In this document: positions 6,905 through 59,198 of the stretch, one piece after another
How positions within the stretch are numbered: position 1 is the stretch's first letter
Layout: each line of letters starts with the position of its first letter
DNA from: Eledone cirrhosa
Lineage: Eukaryota
Direction: 5' to 3'
NCBI GenBank assembly: GCA_964016885.1
Contig: OZ024759.1
Span: 10,912,001-10,976,000 of the forward strand
Length of the DNA: 64,000 nt
The notes under the pieces: generated by a model
Databases searched by the model: none
What the model was told of the DNA's origin: nothing
The model's input: the letters and a program-made list of their open reading frames with translations, nothing else
Position numbers and translations under genes: made by a program

Positions 6905-8471
6905 CAAAGAGGGTGTGGTAAGATACCCGGTGAACCTTAACGCACCAGAGTACTCAATACTTAGGTTAGTAGAGTGGGTAATAGTAGCTCAGCCATTGGG
7001 GTTGTGACTCTTTATATATATCATAATCATCATCATTTTATGTCCACTTTTCCCTGCTTGCAAGGGTGGGACGGGAACTGATTCTGGCTTGATTTCTACA
7101 GCTGGATGCCCTTCCTAACACCAACCTCATTTACAGTGAGTGCTGGGTGCTTTTTTGCCGTGGCACCTCCACGACCACTTTGCAGTGGAATGATAGGGAC
7201 CCCAGCCCCTATAATCTCATTTTTACAGCTGAGTAAACTGGAGCAATGTGAAATAAAGTGTCTTGTTCAAGGAAACAACATATCACCCGGTCTGAGAATT
7301 GAACTCACAACCTTTCGATTGCAAGGCCAATGCCTCCATATCTCGCTTGCAATTGAGTGACATGGTAGTATGTACCATGCTTTCACTAAGGGTTTTAGGT
7401 GTCCCAGCAGTCACAGGCACCTTCCTCTTGATCCAGCTCAACATCCAGGATGTGAAAGTTGGAAGGAAAGAGAAACGGTTGCCCCAGCAGTTGACTGGTA
7501 TCTTAATTTATGGACCTTTAACCCTTTACCATTTACATTACTCTATATTTACTATTATATTTTCATATATCGAGTCTATGAGATTTACATTTTATTTATT
7601 TTGAGAACAATACCTTAACAGTATGTGTAGCTGGTTACAGCCAATTTGAACTGAAAGAGGCGAGAGAATTCTGGCTGGATATAGTCGGTTTAACATCAGT
7701 ATAAGTGGCTGGTTTCAACAGAGAAAGGTGAGAGAATTCTGGCTAGTTTAGCATCAGTATGGCTGGTTTGTTAGAGCCAGTTTGAACAGAAAAAGGTGAG
7801 AGGATTCTGGCTGGATATAGCCTGTTTAACATCAGTATGGGTGGCTGGTTTGAACAGAGAAAGGTGAGAGAATTCTGGCCAGTTTAACATCAGTATGGCT
7901 GGTTTGTTAGAGCCAGTTTGAACAGAAAAAGGTGAGAGAATTCTGGCTGGATATAGCCTGTTTAACATCAGTATGGGTGGCTGGTTTGAACAGAGAAAGG
8001 TGAGAGGATTCTGACTGGATATAGCCTGTTTAACATCAGTATGGGTGGCTGGTTTGAACAGAGAAAGGTGAGAGGATTCTGACTGGATATAGCCTGTTTA
8101 ACATCAGTATGGGTGGCTGGTTTAAATGCTAAAGGGTATGAAAGGCAATGACGTTTGAATACAGAAACTAGCAACAATGCTTCAATGACTCAGTCCAATC
8201 CATCATCATATTACTAATCAATGAACCATGAAATAGAAAAGAAACCTCTATTTGTAAGTAGTACCATGTGCTTTGTTGATTGGGATTGACACAATGATGA
8301 TTGTGGTAGTCATAGTAGTAAGGTTTGATGGTAATACATTGTAAGAAGGTCTAATTGATCAGATATAAGCTTTGATCAATAAAAGTTCAAATAGCTTTGT
8401 TGGTATGGACACTGAATATACATGGGTGAAAAAGAGCTGTTAATTGCATATTTAAACCTTTCACCATATTT

Positions 8472-9926
8472 TTAATGAAAGACACTGTCTATGTCATTAA
8501 CCCTTTCATTGCCATATTTCTAATGAAAGACACTGTCTATGTCATTAACCCTTTCATTGCCATATTTCTAATGAAAGACACTGTCTATGTCATTAACCCT
8601 TTCATTACCATATTTCTAATGAAAGACACTGTCTATGTCATTAACCCTTTCATTGCCATATTTCTAATGAAAGACACTGTCTATGTCATTAACCCTTTCA
8701 TTGCCATATTTCTAATGAAAGACACTGTCTATGTCATTAACCCTTTCATTGCCATATTTCTAATGAAAGACACTGTCTATGTCATTAACCCTTTCATTGC
8801 CATATTTCTAATGAAAGACACTGTCTATGTCATTAACCCTTTCATTGCCATATTTCTAATGAAAGACACTGTCTATGTCATTAACCCTTCCATTACCATA
8901 TTTCTAATGAAAGACACTGTCTATGTCATTAACCCTTTCATTGCCATATTTCTAATGAAAGACACTGTCTATGTCATTAACCCTTCCATTACGATATTTC
9001 TAATGAAAGACACTGTCTATGTCATTAACCCTTTCATTACCATAGTTATAATGAAAGACACTGTCTATGTCATTAACCCTACCATTACCATATTTCTAAT
9101 GAAAGACACTGTCTATGTCATTAACTCTTTCATTACCATATTTCTAATGAAAGACACTGTCTATGTCATTAACCCTACCATTACGATATTTCTAATGAAA
9201 TAAACTCCCTATATCATTAACCCTTTCATTACCATATTTCTAATGAAAGACACTGTCTATGTCATTAACCCTACCATTACCATATTTCTAATGAAAGACA
9301 CTGTCTATGTCATTAACCCTTTCATTACCATATTTCTAATGAAAGACACTGTCTATGTCATTAACCCTTTCATTACCATATTTCTAATGAAAGACACTTT
9401 CTATGTCATTAACCCTTTCATTACCATATTTCTAATGAAAGACACGGTCTATGTCATTAACCCTTTCATTGCCATATTTCTAATGAAAGACACGGTCTAT
9501 GTCATTAACCCTACCATTACCATATTTCTAATGAAAGACACTGTCTATGTCATTAACTCTTTCATTACCATATTTCTAATGAAAGACACTGTCTATGTCA
9601 TTAACCCTTTCATTACCATAGTTCTAATGAAAGACACTGTCTATGTCATTAACCCTATCATTACCATATTTCTAATGAAAGACACTGTCTATGTCATTAA
9701 CCCTTTCATTACCATATTTCTAATGAAAGACACTGTCTATGTCATTAACCCTTTCATTGCCATATTTCTAATGAAAGACACTGTCTATGTCATTAACCCT
9801 TTCATTACTATAGTTCTAATGAAAGACACTGTCTATGTCATTAACCCTATCATTACCATATTTCTAATGAAAGACACTGTCTATGTCATTAACCCTTTCA
9901 TTACCATATTTCTAATGAAAGACACT
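8472..9926 (+). repeat. 48-bp minisatellite (TAATGAAAGACACTGTCTATGTCATTAACCCTTTCATTACCATATTTC)n, about 30 copies
   Basis: Direct periodicity, also seen as a 16-aa period in the spurious ORF. Confidence 0.97.
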
Positions 9927-10197
9927 ACCTATGATTTTCTAAATCCTATTTCAATTTGTTGGTGGGGTGATGTTTGCAGGAGGTATTGCTTGCCATTGTC
10001 TGCAGATATACTGCAGTGTGCAGCTGAAACACCACTCTGATCTCACTATTGTCCTCAGCTTCTTCTCATCCTTCTCATCCTTTATCTAATTAATAATCCA
10101 AGCTCTTCCCATCCTTTTCCTCTCATTTATGGCATTTATAGTCCTTTCCAATACTGCTTTTCTCTACTCTGTTTGATCAATAAGTAATAACAAATTT

Positions 10198-16844: not shown

Positions 16845-19800
16845 GACCAGTGGGGAGGGACTTACATGTATTCCTGGCCCCTACTGACAGGCCATCAGTT
16901 GACCATACAGTGGGGTGGGAGTCTATCTCTCATATATTCCTGGCCCCTACTGACAAGTCATCAACTGACCATCACTGGGGTGGGAGTCTATCTCTCACAT
17001 ATATTCCTGGACCCTACTGACAGGTCATCAACTGACCATCAGTGGGGAGGGAGTCTCCCTCTCATACATTCCTGGCCCCTACAACATGTCATCAACTGAC
17101 CATCAGTGGGGTGGGAGTCTACCTCTCACATATATTCCTGGCCCTACAACAGGTCATCAGTTGACCATACAGTGGGGTGGGAGTCTGCCTCTCACATATA
17201 TTCCTGGCCCCTACAACAGGTCATCAACTGACCATCAGTGGGGTGGGAGTCTGCCTCTCACATATATTCCTGGCCCCTACAACAGGTCATCAACTGACCA
17301 TCAGTGGGGTGGGAGTCTGCCTCTCACATATATTCCTGGCCCCTACAACATGTCATCAACTGACCATCAGTGGGGTGGGAGTCTACCTCTCACATATATT
17401 CCTGGCCCTACAACAGGTCATCAGTTGACCATACAGTGGGGTGGGAGTCTGCCTCTCACATATATTCCTGGCCCCTACAACAGGTCATCAACTGACCATC
17501 AGTGGGGTGGGAGTCTGCCTCTCACATATATTCCTGGCCCCTACAACAGGTCATCAACTGACCATCAGTGGGGTGGGAGTCTACCTCTCACATATATTCC
17601 TGGCCCCTACAACAGGTCATCAACTGACCATCAGTGGGGTGGGAGTCTGCCTCTCACATACATTCCTGGCCCCTACAACAGGTCATCAACTGACCATACA
17701 GTGGGGTGGGAGTCTGCCTCTCACATACATTCCTGGCCCCTACAACAGGTCATCAACTGACCATCAGTGGGGTGGGAGTCTATCTCTCACATATATTCCT
17801 GGCCCCTACAACAGGTCATCAGTTGACCATACAGTGGGGTGGGAGTCTGCCTCTCACATATATTCCTGGCCCCTACAACAGGTCATCAGTTGACCATACA
17901 GTGGGGTGGGAGTCTGCCTCTCACATATATTCCTGGCCCCTACAACAGGTCATTCACTGACCATCAGTGGGGTGGAAGTCTGCCTCTCACATATATTCCT
18001 GGCCCCTACAACAGGTCATCAACTGACCATACAGTGGGGTGGGAGTCTGCCTCTCACATACATTCCTGGCCCCTACAACAGGTCATCAACTGACCATCAG
18101 TGGGGTGGGAGTCTATCTCTCACATATATTCCTGGCCCCTACAACAGGTCATCAGTTGACCATACAGTGGGGTGGGAGTCTGCCTCTCACATACATTCCT
18201 GGCCCCTACAACAGGTCATCAACTGACCATACAGTGGGGTGGGAGTCTGCCTCTCACATATATTCCTGGCCCCTACAACAGGTCATCAGTTGACCATCAG
18301 TGGGGTGGGAGTCTGCGTCTCACATACATTCCTGGCCCCTACAACAGGTCATCAACTGACCATCAGTGGGGTGGGAGTCTACCTCATACATTCCTGCCCC
18401 CTACAACAGGTCATCAACTGACCATCAGTGGGGTGGAAGTCTGCCTCTCACATACATTCCTGGCCCCTACAACAGGTCATCAACTGACCATCAGTGGGGT
18501 GGGAGTCTGCCTCTCACATACATTCCTGGCCCCTACAACAGGTCATCAACTGACCATCAGTGGGGTGGGAGTCTACCTCATACATTCCTGGCCCCTACAA
18601 CAGGTCATCAACTGACCATCAGTGGGGTGGGAGTCTGCCTCTCACATATATTCCTGGCCCCTACAACAGGTCATCAACTGACCATCAGTGGGGTGGAAGT
18701 CTGCCTCTCACATACATTCCTGGCCCCTACAACAGGTCATCAACTGACCATCAGTGGGGTGGGAGTCTGCCTCTCACATACATTCCTGGCCCCTACAACA
18801 GGTCATCAACTGACCATCAGTGGGGTGGGAGTCTGCCTCTCACATATATTCCTGGCCCCTACAACAGGTCATCAACTGACCATCAGTGGGGTGGGAGTCT
18901 GCCTCTCACATACATTCCTGGCCCCTACAACAGGTCATCAACTGACCATCAGTGGGGTGGAAGTCTGCCTCTCACACACATTCCTGGCCCCTACAACAGG
19001 TCATCAACTGACCATCAGTGGGGTGGGAGTCTGCCTCTCACATACATTCCTGGCCCCTACAACAGGTCATCAACTGACCATCAGTGGGGTGGGAGTCTGC
19101 CTCTCACATACATTCCTGGCCCCTACAACAGGTCATCAGTTGACCATCAGTGGGGTGGGAGTCTGCCTCTCACATATATTCCTGGCCCCTACAACAGGTC
19201 ATCAACTGACCATCAGTGGGGTGGGAGTCTGCCTCTCACATATATTCCTGGCCCCTACAACAGGTCATCAACTGACCATCAGTGGGGTGGGAGTCTGCCT
19301 CTCACATATATTCCTGGCCCCTACAACAGGTCATCAACTGACCATCAGTGGGGTGGGAGTCTGCCTTTCACATACATTCCTGGCCCCTACAACAGGTCAT
19401 CAGTTGACCATCAGTGGGGTGGGAGTCTACCTCTCACATATATTCCTGGCCCCTACAACAGGTCATCAACTGACCATCAGTGGGGTGGGAGTCTGCCTCT
19501 CACATACATTCCTGGCCCCTACAACAGGTCATCAACTGACCATCAGTGGGGTGGGAGTCTGCCTCTCACATACATTCCTGGCCCCTACAACAGGTCATCA
19601 GTTGACCATCAGTGGGGTGGGAGTCTACCTCTCACATATATTCCTGGCCCCTACAACAGGTCATCAACTGATCATCAGTGGGGTGGGAGTCTGCCTCTCA
19701 CATACATTCCTGGCCCCTACAACAGGTCATCAACTGACCATCAGTGGGGTGGTAGTCTGCCTCTCACATATATTCCTGGCCCCTACAACAGGTCATCAAC

Positions 19801-24568: not shown

Positions 24569-43025
<18,457 letters not shown>

Positions 43026-44044
43026 TTCCCCTGGAGAAGCCCTCTTTCTCTACCAAACTTATCATATCACATCGAACAAACCACAAATGTGAAGCTTCTT
43101 GAATTTGCATAGGTTGCTCTAACAAAAGAAATACGTCTTAAGTTATTAGATAAAATATCACCCATTTCTTCATGTCACAAATGTATTTGTTTCAATAACT
43201 AATAATTGCTAACGAGGTAGGAGGATAAGTAATGGTGAGTATGGTTGGAGAAGGGGGATAGTGTCAAAATTGACTCTCAAATATCCCTATTGACTTTATT
43301 GATAGACAATTTAAAAAAAAAATTTATTTATTTATTTATATTTGCTATACCTTCTACGCTGCTGTTGTTGAGGTAAAAACTGCTTTCTCCCCCTTCTCTG
43401 CAATCAATTCATTCATGACTAAGTTGACTTGTTTTCAAAGCTACACCAATATAATACTCAACTACCTCTGCATAGATCACAAGTTGAAGTCTACAGTGGC
43501 AAATATTTCACTATATTGCTGATTCATTTACTGGTACCTATTCCAGTTTTATCAGCATTAAGCGATTGAGAGTGGACACCTGGACAGGACACCAGTCCAT
43601 TGCAAAGTTAACTCCCCAGCTACTGCTGCTACTCATTTTCTGCTGAGTGTACTGGAGCAACATGAAATGAAGTGTTTTGCTCAAGAACACAACGAAATTG
43701 ACTGGTGTCCTGTGGAAGGAAGAATCTTGTACTTTCAGTTATTTAACACTGATAAGACTGAGATAATCACTGGCCTGAGGATCCTTCAGGCATGAGGCAG
43801 ACTTTAGACGAGATTTAATCTCAGATCATACAAAGCTGAAACTAATACTTCAAAGCATTTTAACCTTTTTGATACCAAACCACCTTTAACTGCTGTTTAT
43901 CTTCAAGTGTTTATACTTATGTAAACACCTTTCATCAAATAATTTTTGAAGAAAAGTGTTACACTATGTTCGAATCATTAAAAGGATAGATGAACTACTA
44001 AATTTCTCCAATTTTTTTAATTACTTTCAAAATTGTTTGTAAAC

Positions 44045-45333
44045 CATAGACAATGTCTTTCATTAAAAATATTGTAATGAAAGGGTTAATGACATAGACA
44101 GTGTCTTTCATTAAAAATATTGTAATGAAAGGGTTAATCACATGGGTAGTGTCTTTCATTAGAAATATGATAATGAAAGGGTTAATGGCATAGTCAGTGT
44201 CTTTCATTAGAAATGTGGTAATGAAAGGGTTAATGACACAGACAGTGTCTTTCATTAGAAATATGATAATGAAAGGGTTAATGGCATAGACAGTGTCTTA
44301 CATTAGAAATATGGTAATGAAAGGGTTAATGACATAGACAGTGTCTTACATTAGAAATATGGTAATGAAAGGGTTAATGGCATAGTCAGTGTCTTTCATT
44401 AGAAATATGGTAATGAAAGGGTTAATGACATAGACAGTGTCTTTCATTAGAAATATGGTAATGAAAGGGTTAATGACATAGACAGTGTCTTACATTAGAA
44501 ATATGGTAATGAAAGGGTTAATGACATAGACAGTGTCTTTCATTAGAAATATGGTAATGAAAGAGTTAATGACATAGACAGTGTCTTACATTAGAAATAT
44601 GGTAATGAAAGGGTTAATGACATAGACAGTGTATTTCATTAGAAATATGGTAATGAAAGGGTTAATGACATAGACAGTGTCTTTCATTAGAAATATGGTA
44701 ATGAAAGGGTTAATGACATAGACAGTGTCTCTCATTAGAAATATGGTAATGAAAGGGTTAATGACATAGACAGTGTCTTTCATTAGAAATATGGTAATGA
44801 AAGGGTTAATGACATAGACAGTGTCTTTCATTAGAAATATGGTAATGGAAGGGTTAATGACATGGACAGTGTCTCTCATTAGAAATATGGTAATGAAAGG
44901 GTTAATGACATAGACAGTGTCTTTCATTAGAAATATGGTAATGGAAGGGTTAATGACATAGACAGTGTCTTTCATTAGAAATATGGTAATGAAAGGGTTA
45001 ATGACATAGACAGTGTCTTTCATTAGAAATATGGTAATGAAAGGGTTAATGACATAAACAGTGTCTTTCATTAGAAATATGGTAATGGAAGGGTTAATGA
45101 CATAGACAGTGTCTCTCATTAGAAATATGGTAATGAAAGGGTTAATGACATAGACAGTGTCTTTCATTAGAAATATGGTAATGGAAGGGTTAATGACATA
45201 AACAGTGTCTTTCATTAGAAATATGGTAATGAAAGGGTTAATGACATAAACAGTGTCTTTCATTAGAAATATGGTAATGAAAGGGTTAATGACATAGACA
45301 GTGTCTTACATTAGAAATATGGTAACAAAAGGT
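44045..45333 (-). repeat. Same 48-bp minisatellite in inverted orientation, about 27 copies
   Basis: Reverse complement of the 8472-9926 unit. Confidence 0.97.
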
Positions 45334-46675
45334 TTCATCCTATGTTGTTAGACTTTACTAATTTGCTCCCTACCCTTGTTATTCTAACAGTTTCTGTTTT
45401 AGACTTCGACACATTGCCAACAATTTTGGAGGGAGTGAAATGTCGATTAAATCAACATCTGTTCTTTCCTGATATTTTATATTTTATCGGCTCTGGAACA
45501 ATGATAGGTAAAGTTGACCTCAGACGGATTTGAAACCAAAATGGAAAGAACCTGAGCGAATACTGCAAATCATTTTTGTCCGACTCTCAAAAGATTCTGC
45601 CAAATTCTATGAAATTCCATCCAAATAATTTCCTGCTACAGAGATTACACCACATTTCACTTTTCTCCAATTTCTGAACATTTTCTCACAATTTGTTAAA
45701 TTCCGTCCAATTTTCTTCAAAATAATTAATGTTATTTCTTATTTCTTGTTACATTTTTCTTTATTGATCTTCTATTAATATTAACTTTTAACATCCTGTA
45801 CCACCCGAAACCACATTAGCCAGACATTGTGGAAAATGTATAAAAACAGCACTAGGACTACATTACATTAAATATTAAAGTCTTTACTTAAATACTGCCA
45901 ATTTCCACAATGATTTGTCCACTGGTAAATATACTATAAACATTTGAATTGACAAATCACCTGAAACCACATTAACAAGTCATTCTAGAAAAGTATAAAA
46001 CAACACTCTGACTGCATCACATTAAATATTAAAGTCTTTACTCCAATACTGTAAATTTCCACAACAATCTGTCTACTAGTAATGATATTATAAATATTTA
46101 GTACAAAACACACAATGACTACATCACATTAAATATTAAAGTGTTTACTATAATACTGCAAATTTCCAGAACAATCTGTTGACTAGTAAAGGTACTATAG
46201 ACATTTGAATTAGCAAACCTGTATTTAAACATTTTCTGCTGAATCATTACATGATGTTAAAAGTTAATAACTATTTGTCTGTTTTGATATTTCTGCTGGG
46301 AATATATGAGGTAAATTAGCTAGAAGAGATGCAGGAATGGTTGTGTGGTTAAAACTTTTTGTTTTAGAACCACATGGCTTTCAGTTCTAATATACATCAT
46401 TGGTAAAGCATGGAGGAGCTGAGAGAGAGAGGAATAAAATGTAGTGTGTTAGAGAGAAGATTGCTGGGTGAAGAAGTGGAAGGAAGCTTCAGTAGAGGAA
46501 GACCAAGGAAGACCTGAGTAGAGGTGGTGAGAATGAATCTCAAAATGGTGAATCTGATGTGGAGGAAATGACAAAGGAACGCAATGAGTGGAGGGAAGCT
46601 GTTGGAAAAGGCCGGACCAACTCATACAAGCATGGAATAATGGACATAAAATAGATGATGGAATACCCACATATT

Positions 46676-56558: not shown

Positions 56559-57748
56559 AATGATTACTCTATATTTACTATTATATTTTAATGGTAAAAC
56601 CTTTATCTCACATAAATATCTCACATAATATCGAATCTATAAGACTTTGATATTATTTATTTTGAGGACAATACCTTAACATCAGTATGAGTGGCTTGTT
56701 ATGGCCAGTTTGAACAGAAAGAGTTGAAAGAAATATGGCCAGATATGTCTGGTTTAAATACTAAAAGGTTAATATCTGTATTCCCTTCTAGTAAGGGTTT
56801 GACATGGACAGGTGGCCAGAGATCAAATCACTACTTAATCAGTGATATTAATCTCTTAGAGAGGCGGGGACGGGGGGGGGGGGCACATCTCACATAGTCA
56901 CATATTTTACAGAGTGTAGTGGGTGGTGGAGGTGGTGATGATGATGATGGGGGGTAGTAGTGATAATGATGGCTGTGATGATAATGATGATGGTGGAAAT
57001 AATGATGATAGCAGTGGTGGAGGTGATGATAATGATAGTAGTAATGGTGATGATGATGGTGTTGGTAGTGGTGATGGTGGTGATAATGATGATAGTAGTG
57101 GTGATGGTGATGGTGATGGTGATGATGATGGTCTAATCTTGTTCCCCTTCAAGCCTAACACAACAATGTCCACATGTCTGTTAACAATAATTCAAGACAA
57201 ACCACAATAACAAGAAGCATTTTAATAACCTTTTAACCATTTTCTCTGCTAAACCAAGGGTCAAGCTCTCCCCTATTCTCTACATACATTCTCACCAAAT
57301 CCCTGGCTTTTATTTCCACCTTATAAACCTGAATATTTTCAAATGAAACTCCACACAAACATTACACAAAATATATTTCATTTTTTGAAAAATCAAATCA
57401 AAACAAGATAAAACAAATTAATGTTTATTTCCAAATCCGACGAATTTCTCGTCCGCCTTTTTAACCTTGTGTCAACGTACGGAAAGAAATATCCGGTCAG
57501 CCGAAGAATTATGGACTAAATGTAAACAGGTTACATTACACATTATTACACCGGTCCAAAGAAAAAAGAAGAAGCGAGAGATACATTTGACGGCTTGTTT
57601 GTTGTTTTGTTTGCCTTCTTTAAATATCTAATACAAAGGTCGATGTGATAAAAACAACATATATATATATTTAAAAATGCGATTTGGGAGTATAATATAT
57701 ACACCAAAATTTATATCAGACATAGTAGGTCGAATACAGCGGAACAAA

Positions 57749-57912
57749 ATGTTGGTGAAAGTAGCTGCCTTCTCTGGTCTGGGTGCTTTACTCGTCCATT
57801 CTGCTAGAATACCTTTATCCTTAGCTGGACTTGGTGTTTTTGGTGCTTATGTTATTACTGGTGGATGGCATTTCATATGGGTTATCTGCAACACATTAGG
57901 ACGAGATCTATG
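57749..57912 (+). CDS. First coding exon of a long-chain fatty acid transport protein (FATP1/FATP4, SLC27A1/4-like); the gene continues beyond the window
   Basis: MLVKVAAFSGLGALLVHSARIPLSLAGLGVFGAYVITGGWHFIWVICNTLGRDL resembles the FATP1/4 N-terminus (hydrophobic segment, then GGWRF.....T.RRD). Donor tg/gtcagt. An in-frame upstream ATG exists at 57677. Confidence 0.75.
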
Positions 57913-58361
57913 GTCAGTCAACAACTTTGCTTTTATGTTTTCTGTTTTAATTTCTTCTTACCATTTCTTACCTTAATTCTTTCTTCAGGATTATATATTT
58001 ATTATTCCATTCACACACCCTTTCCCGTTTATTCATCCCCCCTCCCCCCCGGGGGGTGTAACATACACTTTCTCTATTCTGTCTGCTGGGTCCATGATGC
58101 GGCTTCTTTCACCCGTGTTTTCAGTCTTGTCCCACATTCTCCAGGTATATATATATATATAATATATATATATATATGTATGTATATATATATATATATA
58201 TATATACATGGAGAATATGGGACAAGACTGAAAACCCGGGTGAAAGAATGCGGCTTCTTTCACCCGCGTTTTCAGTCTTGTCCCACATTCTCCAGGTGTA
58301 TATATATATATATATTATACAATATTAAATAAATGGAAAACTATATTTATAAAACCATATT

Positions 58362-58427
58362 TATTTCATTATATATATTTCGGGGATATCATATTAACAA
58401 TATGCTATGCCTTCATCAGACAAAATA
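58362..58427 (-). ncRNA. Minimal type-I hammerhead ribozyme (family A, inverted partner of 58585-58650)
   Basis: Reverse-complement copy within the 58318-58694 palindrome. Confidence 0.75.
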
Positions 58428-58584
58428 CAATATAAACAGTTTTATAGATAAATATATTCGACATACCGTAATAAACATCAACTTCATTTGAAGAGGTTTA
58501 CGCTAGCAGAGTGAACCTCTTCAAATGAAGTTGATGTTTATTACGGTATGTCGAATATATTTATCTATAAAACTGTTTATATTG

Positions 58585-58650
58585 TATTTTGTCTGATGAA
58601 GGCATAGCATATTGTTAATATGATATCCCCGAAATATATATAATGAAATA
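58585..58650 (+). ncRNA. Minimal type-I hammerhead ribozyme (family A)
   Basis: UAUUUUGU-CUGAUGA-AGGCAUAGCAUAUU guu AAUAUGAUAUCCCC-GAAA-U AUAU A-UA^AUGAAAUA. Stem I is kept through G-U pairs. Confidence 0.75.
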
Positions 58651-58862
58651 AATATGGTTTTATAAATATAGTTTTCCATTTATTTAATATTGTAAATATA
58701 CTCCAAATATTTGTCGAGTGCTTTTATATCAGTTATAAATATTTACTAGTTGTAACCCAACAATTTTAAATATAACTTTACATATATATATTATATATAT
58801 ATACCTGGAGAATGTGGGACAAGACTCAAAACCCGGGTGAAAGAAGCCGCATCATGGACCCA

Positions 58863-58921
<59 letters not shown>

Positions 58922-59198
58922 AAAACAGACGAGAGAGTGTGTTTATCGATGTTTGAGCTCATAAATTACAGGGACTAACGCGAGTTTATGACTCCGTTAA
59001 CTTATATATATATATATATATATATAAGATTTAATATAGAACTGTTTCATTCGAAGGAAATCACCAGGAAAGCCTTACTGTGGTTACCCCTGATTGAACC
59101 CGGGACTCACACATACACACACATATATGAACCAGCTGTTGAAATAGCAAGAGCTCAGCCGTCGATTCGGCAAGAGCTCAGCCGTCGATTCCCAACTC

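What the first reader, a model, noticed from the sequence alone, without database searches (positions are those of the whole stretch)
58318..58694. Third dual-hammerhead palindrome (377 bp), essentially perfect and probably young
Seen: arms match almost base for base around the loop GCTAGCAGA (58502-58510). Hammerheads lie at 58362-58427 (-) and 58585-58650 (+). Flanks are homologous to the single-hammerhead copies at 13.5 and 33.6 kb, but stem II differs completely in sequence while still pairing. It sits 400 bp downstream of the FATP-like first exon, so it would be in the pre-mRNA. Inference: the long hairpin would compete with ribozyme folding and is a likely ADAR or Dicer substrate.
Basis: partly seen in the sequence, partly recalled or inferred. 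Interest (0 to 1): 0.8.

Follow-up and report, generated by a model that had tools for sequence, protein, structure and literature searches.

The report
Penelope stub copied to RNA cap
This palindrome is a real, common stub of a young octopus Penelope-type jumping gene, and its many sister copies tend to stop at one base and often carry an extra G there, which likely marks the capped start of the RNA they were copied from, while longer copies run past that point and so likely come from a different, uncapped RNA.

Summary
The palindrome is real: 184-bp arms with 1 mismatch, a minimal hammerhead in each arm, in intron 1 of an octopus FATP4 gene. It is the end (pLTR) of a young Hydra-type Penelope-like retrotransposon (736-aa ORF, TERT-like fold), inserted head-to-head in (TA)n with an 89-nt tail on one side only. 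About 1,500 exact copies of each end exist; 11 of 80 sampled short ends have this spacing. The architecture is published, and this scan noted such palindromes before on other DNA. What I did not find in print: 5' ends pile up at an initiator-like site just beyond the 'loop' (31 of 66 short arms), often with an untemplated G (11 of 23, against 1 of 38 elsewhere), the known mark of a reverse-transcribed cap. Copies followed by the ORF never stop there (0 of 47). So short palindromes likely come from two primings on one capped sense RNA, and long copies from a capless circular or multimeric RNA. In the host pre-mRNA the hairpin is predicted to block the ribozyme. ADAR editing, cleavage and polymorphism could not be tested.

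The parts
58318..58509 (-). Inverted pLTR arm, element positions -282 to -91 (0 = tail end, 58785); no tail; joined to (TA)n
   Evidence: 1,493 exact matches genome-wide to this end joined to TATA
58508..58783 (+). Direct pLTR arm, positions -277 to -2, including the tail
   Evidence: same sequence ends full-length elements such as L043
58508..58509 (.). 2-nt AG overlap joining the two arms; same -282/-277 junction in L073, L107, L110 and mirrored in L105, L131
58695..58783 (+). One-sided 89-nt tail between the two inferred reverse-transcription start sites
   Evidence: tail as span between RT start sites in PMC11167929
58585..58650 (+). Minimal type I hammerhead, sense to the element ORF and to the FATP4 pre-mRNA; predicted cut after 58642
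58362..58427 (-). Mirror hammerhead, antisense in the host pre-mRNA
58499..58513 (.). The two arms differ at element positions -275 and -272; both alleles are common family variants
   Evidence: -275: C 46, A 64; -272: G 39, A 82
58298..58317 (.). (TA)n target, left side
58784..58803 (.). (TA)n target, right side
57677..57912 (+). Coding part of FATP4 (SLC27A4-like) exon 1; GT donor at 57913
58083..58865 (.). Surrounding 60-nt host sequence present four times in alternating orientation (58083-58147, 58205-58248, 58248-58297, 58802-58865); found only here

Best explanation
The palindrome is a head-to-head pair of end pieces of a young Hydra-type Penelope-like retrotransposon sitting in a (TA)n run, likely made when both cut target strands primed reverse transcription on one capped sense RNA at two fixed sites and copied it up to its cap. 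Shown: element identity, one-sided tail, fixed 3' ends at -91 and about 0, 5' ends piling up at -288 to -271 with a peak at -283, an extra G at -284, and arms that usually match within one insertion. Inferred: -283 is the transcription start of the pLTR promoter; the G is the copied m7G cap; the two cDNA ends were trimmed and joined by a 2-nt overlap. The template was not cut by its own hammerhead, since both arms run through the cut site. Long copies do not stop at -283 and likely come from a capless RNA. In the FATP4 pre-mRNA the 184-bp hairpin is predicted to block the only sense hammerhead, so the insertion is probably a neutral passenger and a plausible ADAR substrate.
For: Element: direct pLTR copies flank a 736-aa ORF; best fold match is TERT, E 1e-10; Hydra-clade motifs present. 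Abundance: 1,493 short ends and 1,557 tail-continuing sites, reversed-pattern control 0; 54 of 80 short ends pair with a tail arm within 10 kb, 11 of 80 at spacing 335-341 (window 341). Stop site: 31 of 66 short arms and 33 of 60 tail arms that reach -271 end within -288..-271; per-base rate 0.028 against 0.002 downstream and 0.00075 upstream. The element has C at -284 in 58 of 59 long arms (1 unmatched). Among 61 distinct 5' ends joined to (TA)n, G precedes 11 of 23 that start at -283/-284 and 1 of 38 others (hand count; Fisher p 3e-5). 19 G-bearing single arms have distinct flanks, 11 short-ended and 8 tail-ended, in several subfamilies. The site reads TCACT, the Inr-like word noted in a rotifer pLTR (PMC3846280). 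An untemplated G as cap mark is established for L1 and SVA (PMC3287187). Arms identical in 18 of 25 insertions against 19% of random pairs. ORF-followed pLTRs: 47 with C and 0 with A/G/T at -284, against 19 of 82 terminal arms (p 1.3e-4).
Against: No RNA 5'-end data. The window's own arms stop at -282 and -277, so no G is seen at this locus. Its arms differ at two family-variant sites, which fits two RNAs or junction repair, not one RNA. The stop region is also nearly self-complementary, which could concentrate junctions there without a cap. 12 of 23 ends at -283/-284 lack the G. (14 of 18 with G) is biased, because its pattern excludes in-phase T-to-A joins. The tail-arm sample is enriched for paired arms. 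The 47 ORF-followed copies are not all independent (three form one array). No read or contig spans this locus.
Confidence: 0.78

Rival explanations
1. Same element, but the pile-up is a pause or annealing hotspot at a near-palindromic sequence next to a CT-rich tract, and the G is a non-templated terminal addition.
For: The -286..-270 stretch is nearly self-complementary, and many junctions use 1-6 nt overlaps there.
Against: 0 of 20 resolved ORF-followed copies that reach -271 stop in the same sequence; the G is confined to -284; ends joined to (TA)n, where no arm-arm annealing is needed, also peak there.
Confidence: 0.1
2. The palindrome forms by snap-back self-priming, possibly on an antisense template, as proposed in PMC3846280.
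For: The -282/-277 junction can be drawn as a 2-bp fold-back with a 3-nt loop; arms are usually identical.
Against: The arm with the longer 5' end often lacks the tail, so it cannot have templated the tail arm (window, L073, L107, L110); the extra G sits at the sense 5' end on both arm types; the window's arms differ at two variant sites.
Confidence: 0.06
3. The palindrome is a host-adapted regulatory hairpin or ribozyme switch for FATP4.
For: Sense strand of intron 1, 405 bp from the donor; predicted -283 kcal/mol hairpin.
Against: It is one of an estimated several hundred near-identical stubs (33 of 80 short ends pair within 500 bp) and shows no divergence from the family.
Confidence: 0.03
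4. Assembly fold-back artefact.
For: The flanking host sequence is also inverted-duplicated here (1 of 39 two-armed loci); no spanning read was found.
Against: A fold-back cannot give a one-sided tail, a fixed -91 end joined to (TA)n, two family-variant differences between arms, or the same junction at other loci.
Confidence: 0.03

Closest known systems
Hydra clade of C-terminal-endonuclease Penelope-like elements, including Hydra-1_Obim (Craig et al. 2021, PMC8557442)
   Same: Single RT + C-terminal GIY-YIG ORF, RW(R/K), DKT, CxCx5C, CxxC and CxH motifs, (TA)n targeting, sense hammerhead in the pLTR, inverted 5'-truncated copy and one-sided tail.
   Different: Unit 3,969 bp with a 1.7-kb 3' UTR (Hydra are generally under 3 kb); tail 89 nt (30-40 in the paper); the hammerhead listed for Hydra-1_Obim differs in sequence; this family has about 1,500 near-identical copies.
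Head-to-head inverted pLTR insertions of Adineta Pen2a/Pen3 (Arkhipova et al. 2013, PMC3846280)
   Same: Inverted pLTR overlapping the direct one, palindrome at the junction, optional tail, Inr-like TCACT.
   Different: They inferred self-priming on an antisense template and left the sense template open; the extra G here points to a capped sense template.
Minimal type I hammerheads of metazoan PLEs (Cervera and de la Pena 2014, PMC4209133)
   Same: Core boxes, extra base after position 9, short palindromic helix III; dual motifs 100-700 bp apart on opposite strands are described there.
   Different: Long imperfect stem II with a C-C mismatch shared by most sister families; closing pair is A-C unless the stem slides by one base.
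Anolis Poseidon in vitro (Frangieh et al. 2024, PMC11167929)
   Same: Two internal RT start sites bounding the tail, both target strands cut and extended, uncut RNA as template.
   Different: Other clade; no stop at the transcription start or cap G in the parts read.
L1/SVA full-length insertions with untemplated 5' G (PMC3287187)
   Same: Extra G at the RNA 5' end attributed to copying the cap.
   Different: There it marks full-length copies; here it marks the shortest class, and ORF-followed copies never show it.

Membership tests
Penelope-like element (EN+) | Telomerase-related RT | tested here: met
   YRDD motif; top Foldseek matches are TERTs, E 1.2e-10; Pfam gave 0 families for this protein
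Penelope-like element (EN+) | C-terminal GIY-YIG endonuclease in the same ORF | tested here: met
   Motif residues aligned; library support is weak: Pfam GIY-YIG E 0.012 in 1 of 9 members, intron endonuclease 1mk0 E 0.14
Penelope-like element (EN+) | pLTR by partial tandem, inverted 5' copy, one-sided tail | tested here: met
Hydra clade | RWK and DKT motifs | tested here: met
   RWR (variant, shared by close homologues) and DKT
Hydra clade | CxCx5C linker; CxxC and CxH around conserved E and N | tested here: met
   against the text
Hydra clade | (TA)n insertion | tested here: met
Hydra clade | Absence of the CCHH motif, CxC domain and IFD | tested here: inconclusive
   None seen by eye; no alignment to other clades was made
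Hydra clade | Placement in the clade by RT phylogeny | not tested
   Reference proteins were seen only as cut text in the paper's supplement; motifs were compared by reading
Hydra clade | Generally under 3 kb (a tendency, not a definition) | tested here: not met
   Unit 3,969 bp in L043
Minimal type I hammerhead | CUGANGA and GAAA boxes, stems I and II, palindromic helix III | tested here: met
   stem I and II letters change across sister families while mostly keeping pairs (read by eye, no covariation statistic)
Minimal type I hammerhead | G10.1-C11.1 closing pair | tested here: inconclusive
   A-C in the symmetric register, G-C after a one-base slide; relatives have A-U, G-U or G-C
Minimal type I hammerhead | Self-cleavage | not testable with these tools
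   No RNA run listed; no pile-up of 5' ends at the cut site (4 of 171 arms end in -154..-144)
Rfam hammerhead families | Match to the covariance model | tested here: not met
   None among 24 matches at E up to 10; the long hairpin dominated that search
Non-LTR retrozyme | Head-to-tail tandem units each with a hammerhead | tested here: not met
   Two units head-to-head, derived from an autonomous element (definition)

The most novel reading that the evidence does not exclude
This family runs on two templates. Capped linear RNA yields only short run-off cDNAs (the palindromes and single stubs). The two pLTR hammerheads cut out a unit-length RNA that closes into a circle, and rolling-circle copying of it yields the more-than-unit, promoter-bearing copies. 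That would be genomic evidence for the proposed circular intermediate and would explain how the pseudo-LTR is regenerated.
Probability: 0.3. Interest if true: 0.78.

Novelty: new member of a known kind. Interest (0 to 1): 0.5.

Why it matters
The locus itself is ordinary transposon debris. The family is useful because about 1,500 near-identical copies record the reaction. Two questions are stated as open in print: whether Penelope-like elements copy a sense or an antisense RNA (PMC3846280), and how the pseudo-LTR is regenerated (PMC2377424; a circle is proposed in PMC4209133). The extra G at an initiator-like site argues for a capped sense template, gives the promoter position to the base, and shows that long copies avoid that stop. 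This makes the circle-versus-multimer question directly testable by 5'-end mapping and RNase R. The family also seeds an estimated several hundred long perfect hairpins, a ready set for editing studies in octopus.

Tried and rejected
Rfam scans gave only hairpin-driven miRNA matches below gathering scores (in one search only 150 of 381 rows were shown). Repeat finder output was swamped by AT repeats. Pfam found nothing for the ORF. No RNA holder was listed; this says nothing on expression. Eight runs were laid: contigs break at the (TA)n runs and the RAD reads do not cover the unique flanks, so neither presence at this locus nor polymorphism could be read. One X3 contig matches 57573-57915 and then leaves the window, which fits splicing to exon 2 (it begins with the same three bases), but the run type is not on record. 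A pile-up of 5' ends at the hammerhead cut site was looked for and not seen (4 of 171 arms in -154..-144 against 6 in -231..-227, another AT-rich stretch). Within-element tandem copies are closer (12 substitutions in 7,891 nt) than 3' ends of different elements (75 in about 11,650 nt), which does not separate circle, multimer or template jump. The idea that the outer 60-nt repeat is a MITE family was not supported: 4 matches, all at this locus, though that search can skip common words. A simple cap-to-3'-pLTR strand-transfer model predicts a second stop at the cap and is disfavoured by 0 of 47. The script label for short arms failed by an offset, so all non-tail arms are labelled 'o'; L162 duplicates an arm of L070 and was dropped from the counts but not from the variant table.

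Full report
Observation. The arms 58318-58501 and 58511-58694 pair at 183 of 184 positions. Each holds a minimal type I hammerhead: CUGAUGA at 58593-58599, a long imperfect stem II, GAAA at 58631-58634, a short self-complementary helix III and a predicted cut after 58642. The relatives at 13.5 and 33.6 kb are 77.5% alike with different stem II letters. The upstream exon is 89-91% identical to octopus FATP4. Exon 2 is about 58 kb downstream, so the palindrome lies in intron 1, 405 bp from the donor.

What it is. A search of the own genome (3.0 Gb) with 58511-58785 gave 638 candidates; all 40 scored were about 100% identical over 273-275 nt. Thirty longer stretches showed this piece to be the 3' end of a 3,969-bp unit with a 736-aa ORF on the hammerhead strand, preceded by a direct copy of the same end. 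The predicted fold matches telomerase RT best. The protein has RWR, DKT, CxCx5C, CxxC and CxH motifs, and the copies sit in (TA)n, as described for the Hydra clade. I made no tree, so the clade call rests on motifs. Numbering from the tail end (0 = 58785), the window holds an inverted arm from -282 to -91 and a direct arm from -277 to about 0, overlapping by AG. The 'loop' is element sequence, and the right arm has an 89-nt tail that the left lacks.

How common. The short end joined to TATA has 1,493 exact matches and the tail-continuing form 1,557, with 0 for reversed controls. Of the first 80 short ends on contig C1, 54 pair with a tail arm within 10 kb, 33 within 500 bp, and 11 at spacing 335-341, where the window has 341. 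By extrapolation that is roughly 600 short palindromes and 200 of this size. Five sampled loci have the same -282/-277 junction or its mirror. The architecture is in print: inverted pLTR with one-sided tail (PMC3846280, PMC8557442) and dual minimal hammerheads 100-700 bp apart on opposite strands (PMC4209133). Four earlier notes of this scan describe such palindromes on other DNA.

Where copies stop. I mapped 171 arms in 129 loci: the first 90 short ends listed for C1, and 39 of 67 tail ends that had no short end within 700 bp. Of arms that reach -271, 31 of 66 short arms and 33 of 60 tail arms end within -288..-271. The pooled per-base rate is 0.028, against 0.002 downstream and 0.00075 upstream. 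The peak is -283 (13 arms). The short-arm set is consecutive; the tail-arm set is enriched for paired arms. Position -283 is the A of TCACT, the Inr-like word noted in a rotifer pLTR; its fit to the general initiator consensus is recalled.

The extra G. The element has C at -284 in 58 of 59 long arms. One search gave G at -284 in 14 of 18 copies joined to (TA)n, but that pattern excludes in-phase joins and overstates the share. The wider pattern listed 100 of 143 lines, which I reduced by hand to 61 sites. Of 23 starting at -283/-284, the preceding base is G in 11, T in 8, A in 2 and C in 2. Of 38 starting elsewhere, 1 has G (p 3e-5). Nineteen G-bearing copies have distinct flanks and several subfamily variants; 11 end at -91 and 8 carry the tail. 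An untemplated G at the 5' end is attributed to copying the m7G cap in L1 and SVA. I infer that both start sites use a capped sense RNA beginning at -283.

Long copies behave differently. pLTRs followed by the ORF start number 71. Among those with the -283 motif at the expected distance, 47 have C at -284 and 0 have another base, against 19 of 82 terminal arms (p 1.3e-4). In the first 30 of the 71, 2 were unresolved, 8 end downstream of -271, and 0 of the other 20 end in the hotspot (pooled comparison p 3e-6). In 26 of these 30 at least 1.5 kb of ORF follows; I did not check that all run the whole unit, and some belong to one array. So long copies likely come from RNA with no cap at that point: a circle, as proposed in PMC4209133, or a read-through multimer from arrays such as the three units at C7:78455100-78463413. 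My data do not separate these.

One RNA or two. Arms are identical over -258..-92 in 18 of 25 two-armed insertions, against 19% of random pairs, so both usually come from one source. The window is an exception near the junction: its arms differ at -275 and -272, and both alleles are common in the family. Two different RNAs is the simplest reading; copying of upstream sequence plus a 2-nt slip is the alternative.

Mechanism. Shown: fixed 3' ends, the stop site, the G, arm concordance. From the literature: both target strands are cut and extended, and two internal start sites bound the tail (PMC11167929). Inferred: twin priming at -91 and about 0, run-off at the cap, trimming and joining by a short overlap. 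Both arms cross the hammerhead cut site, and 5' ends do not pile up there, so these templates were uncut.

Effect on the host. In the pre-mRNA the antisense arm comes first. Predicted hammerhead pairs have probability 0.0 in the palindrome and arm-arm pairs 0.998 or more; even the right arm alone forms stem II at only about 0.12. Minimal hammerheads cleave poorly as monomers. Cleavage of FATP4 RNA here is unlikely. A 184-bp nuclear duplex is a plausible ADAR substrate (recalled knowledge); this is untested.

Limits. No read spans the locus, and no RNA data were available. That the cap mark and the stop are not in print for Penelope-like elements rests on three searches read as listings and on the texts below; subscription papers are not covered. 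Papers seen: PMC8557442 passages, section 11 and supplement rows; PMC11167929 parts 1-2 of 4; PMC4209133 parts 1-2 of 4; 10.64898/2026.07.22.740005 part 1 of 5; PMC3846280, PMC3287187 and PMC2377424 passages.

Verdict. A real, young, ordinary-class insertion of a new family of a known kind, with new indirect evidence on its template. Interest 0.5.

Noticed in passing
window 58083-58865; L231; L245: Host flank next to the (TA)n target is duplicated in inverted orientation (four copies here, differing at 2-3 of about 60 bases). Seen in 1 of 39 two-armed loci, and again around the single-arm insertions L231 and L245. It may be a repair by-product at cut (TA)n runs.
   Followed up: partly
window 38020-38421 and 38899-39289: Two older dual-hammerhead palindromes of other families (89% and 96% arm identity including flanking TA); no one-sided tail seen by eye.
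   Followed up: partly
window 33534-33813 and 33937-34740: An inverted hammerhead arm of a sister family joined to a tail-only piece, followed by a fragment 46-49% identical to the C-terminal part of the family ORF.
   Followed up: partly
G000:C7:78455100-78463413: Three pLTR-ORF junctions at a 4,011-bp period, a possible source of multimeric RNA.
   Followed up: no
G000:C22:9580164-9580963: Five pLTR-ORF junction motifs at a 195-bp period plus one inverted, a short tandem array derived from the element.
   Followed up: no
78 sampled tail arms: The bases after the tail start with G in 31 of the 69 arms parsed. G is the base that follows the tail on the ORF side, which hints that many templates include the pLTR-ORF junction.
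   Followed up: partly
L069, L075, L083, L089, L095, L096: Some insertions join a short-ended arm to a tail-only piece of 42-115 nt, so the tail-side cDNA stopped early.
   Followed up: no
window 8463-9942 and 44036-45338: Two arrays with a 48-bp period, 94-95% complementary to each other in inverted orientation.
   Followed up: no
window 17000-19800: Tandem array holding CTGATGA 10 times, with GAAA within 60 nt in only 1; not a hammerhead array.
   Followed up: partly
window 32141-32243 and about 59140-59190: Another short palindromic repeat family next to (TA)n runs, also seen in flanks of several fetched loci.
   Followed up: no
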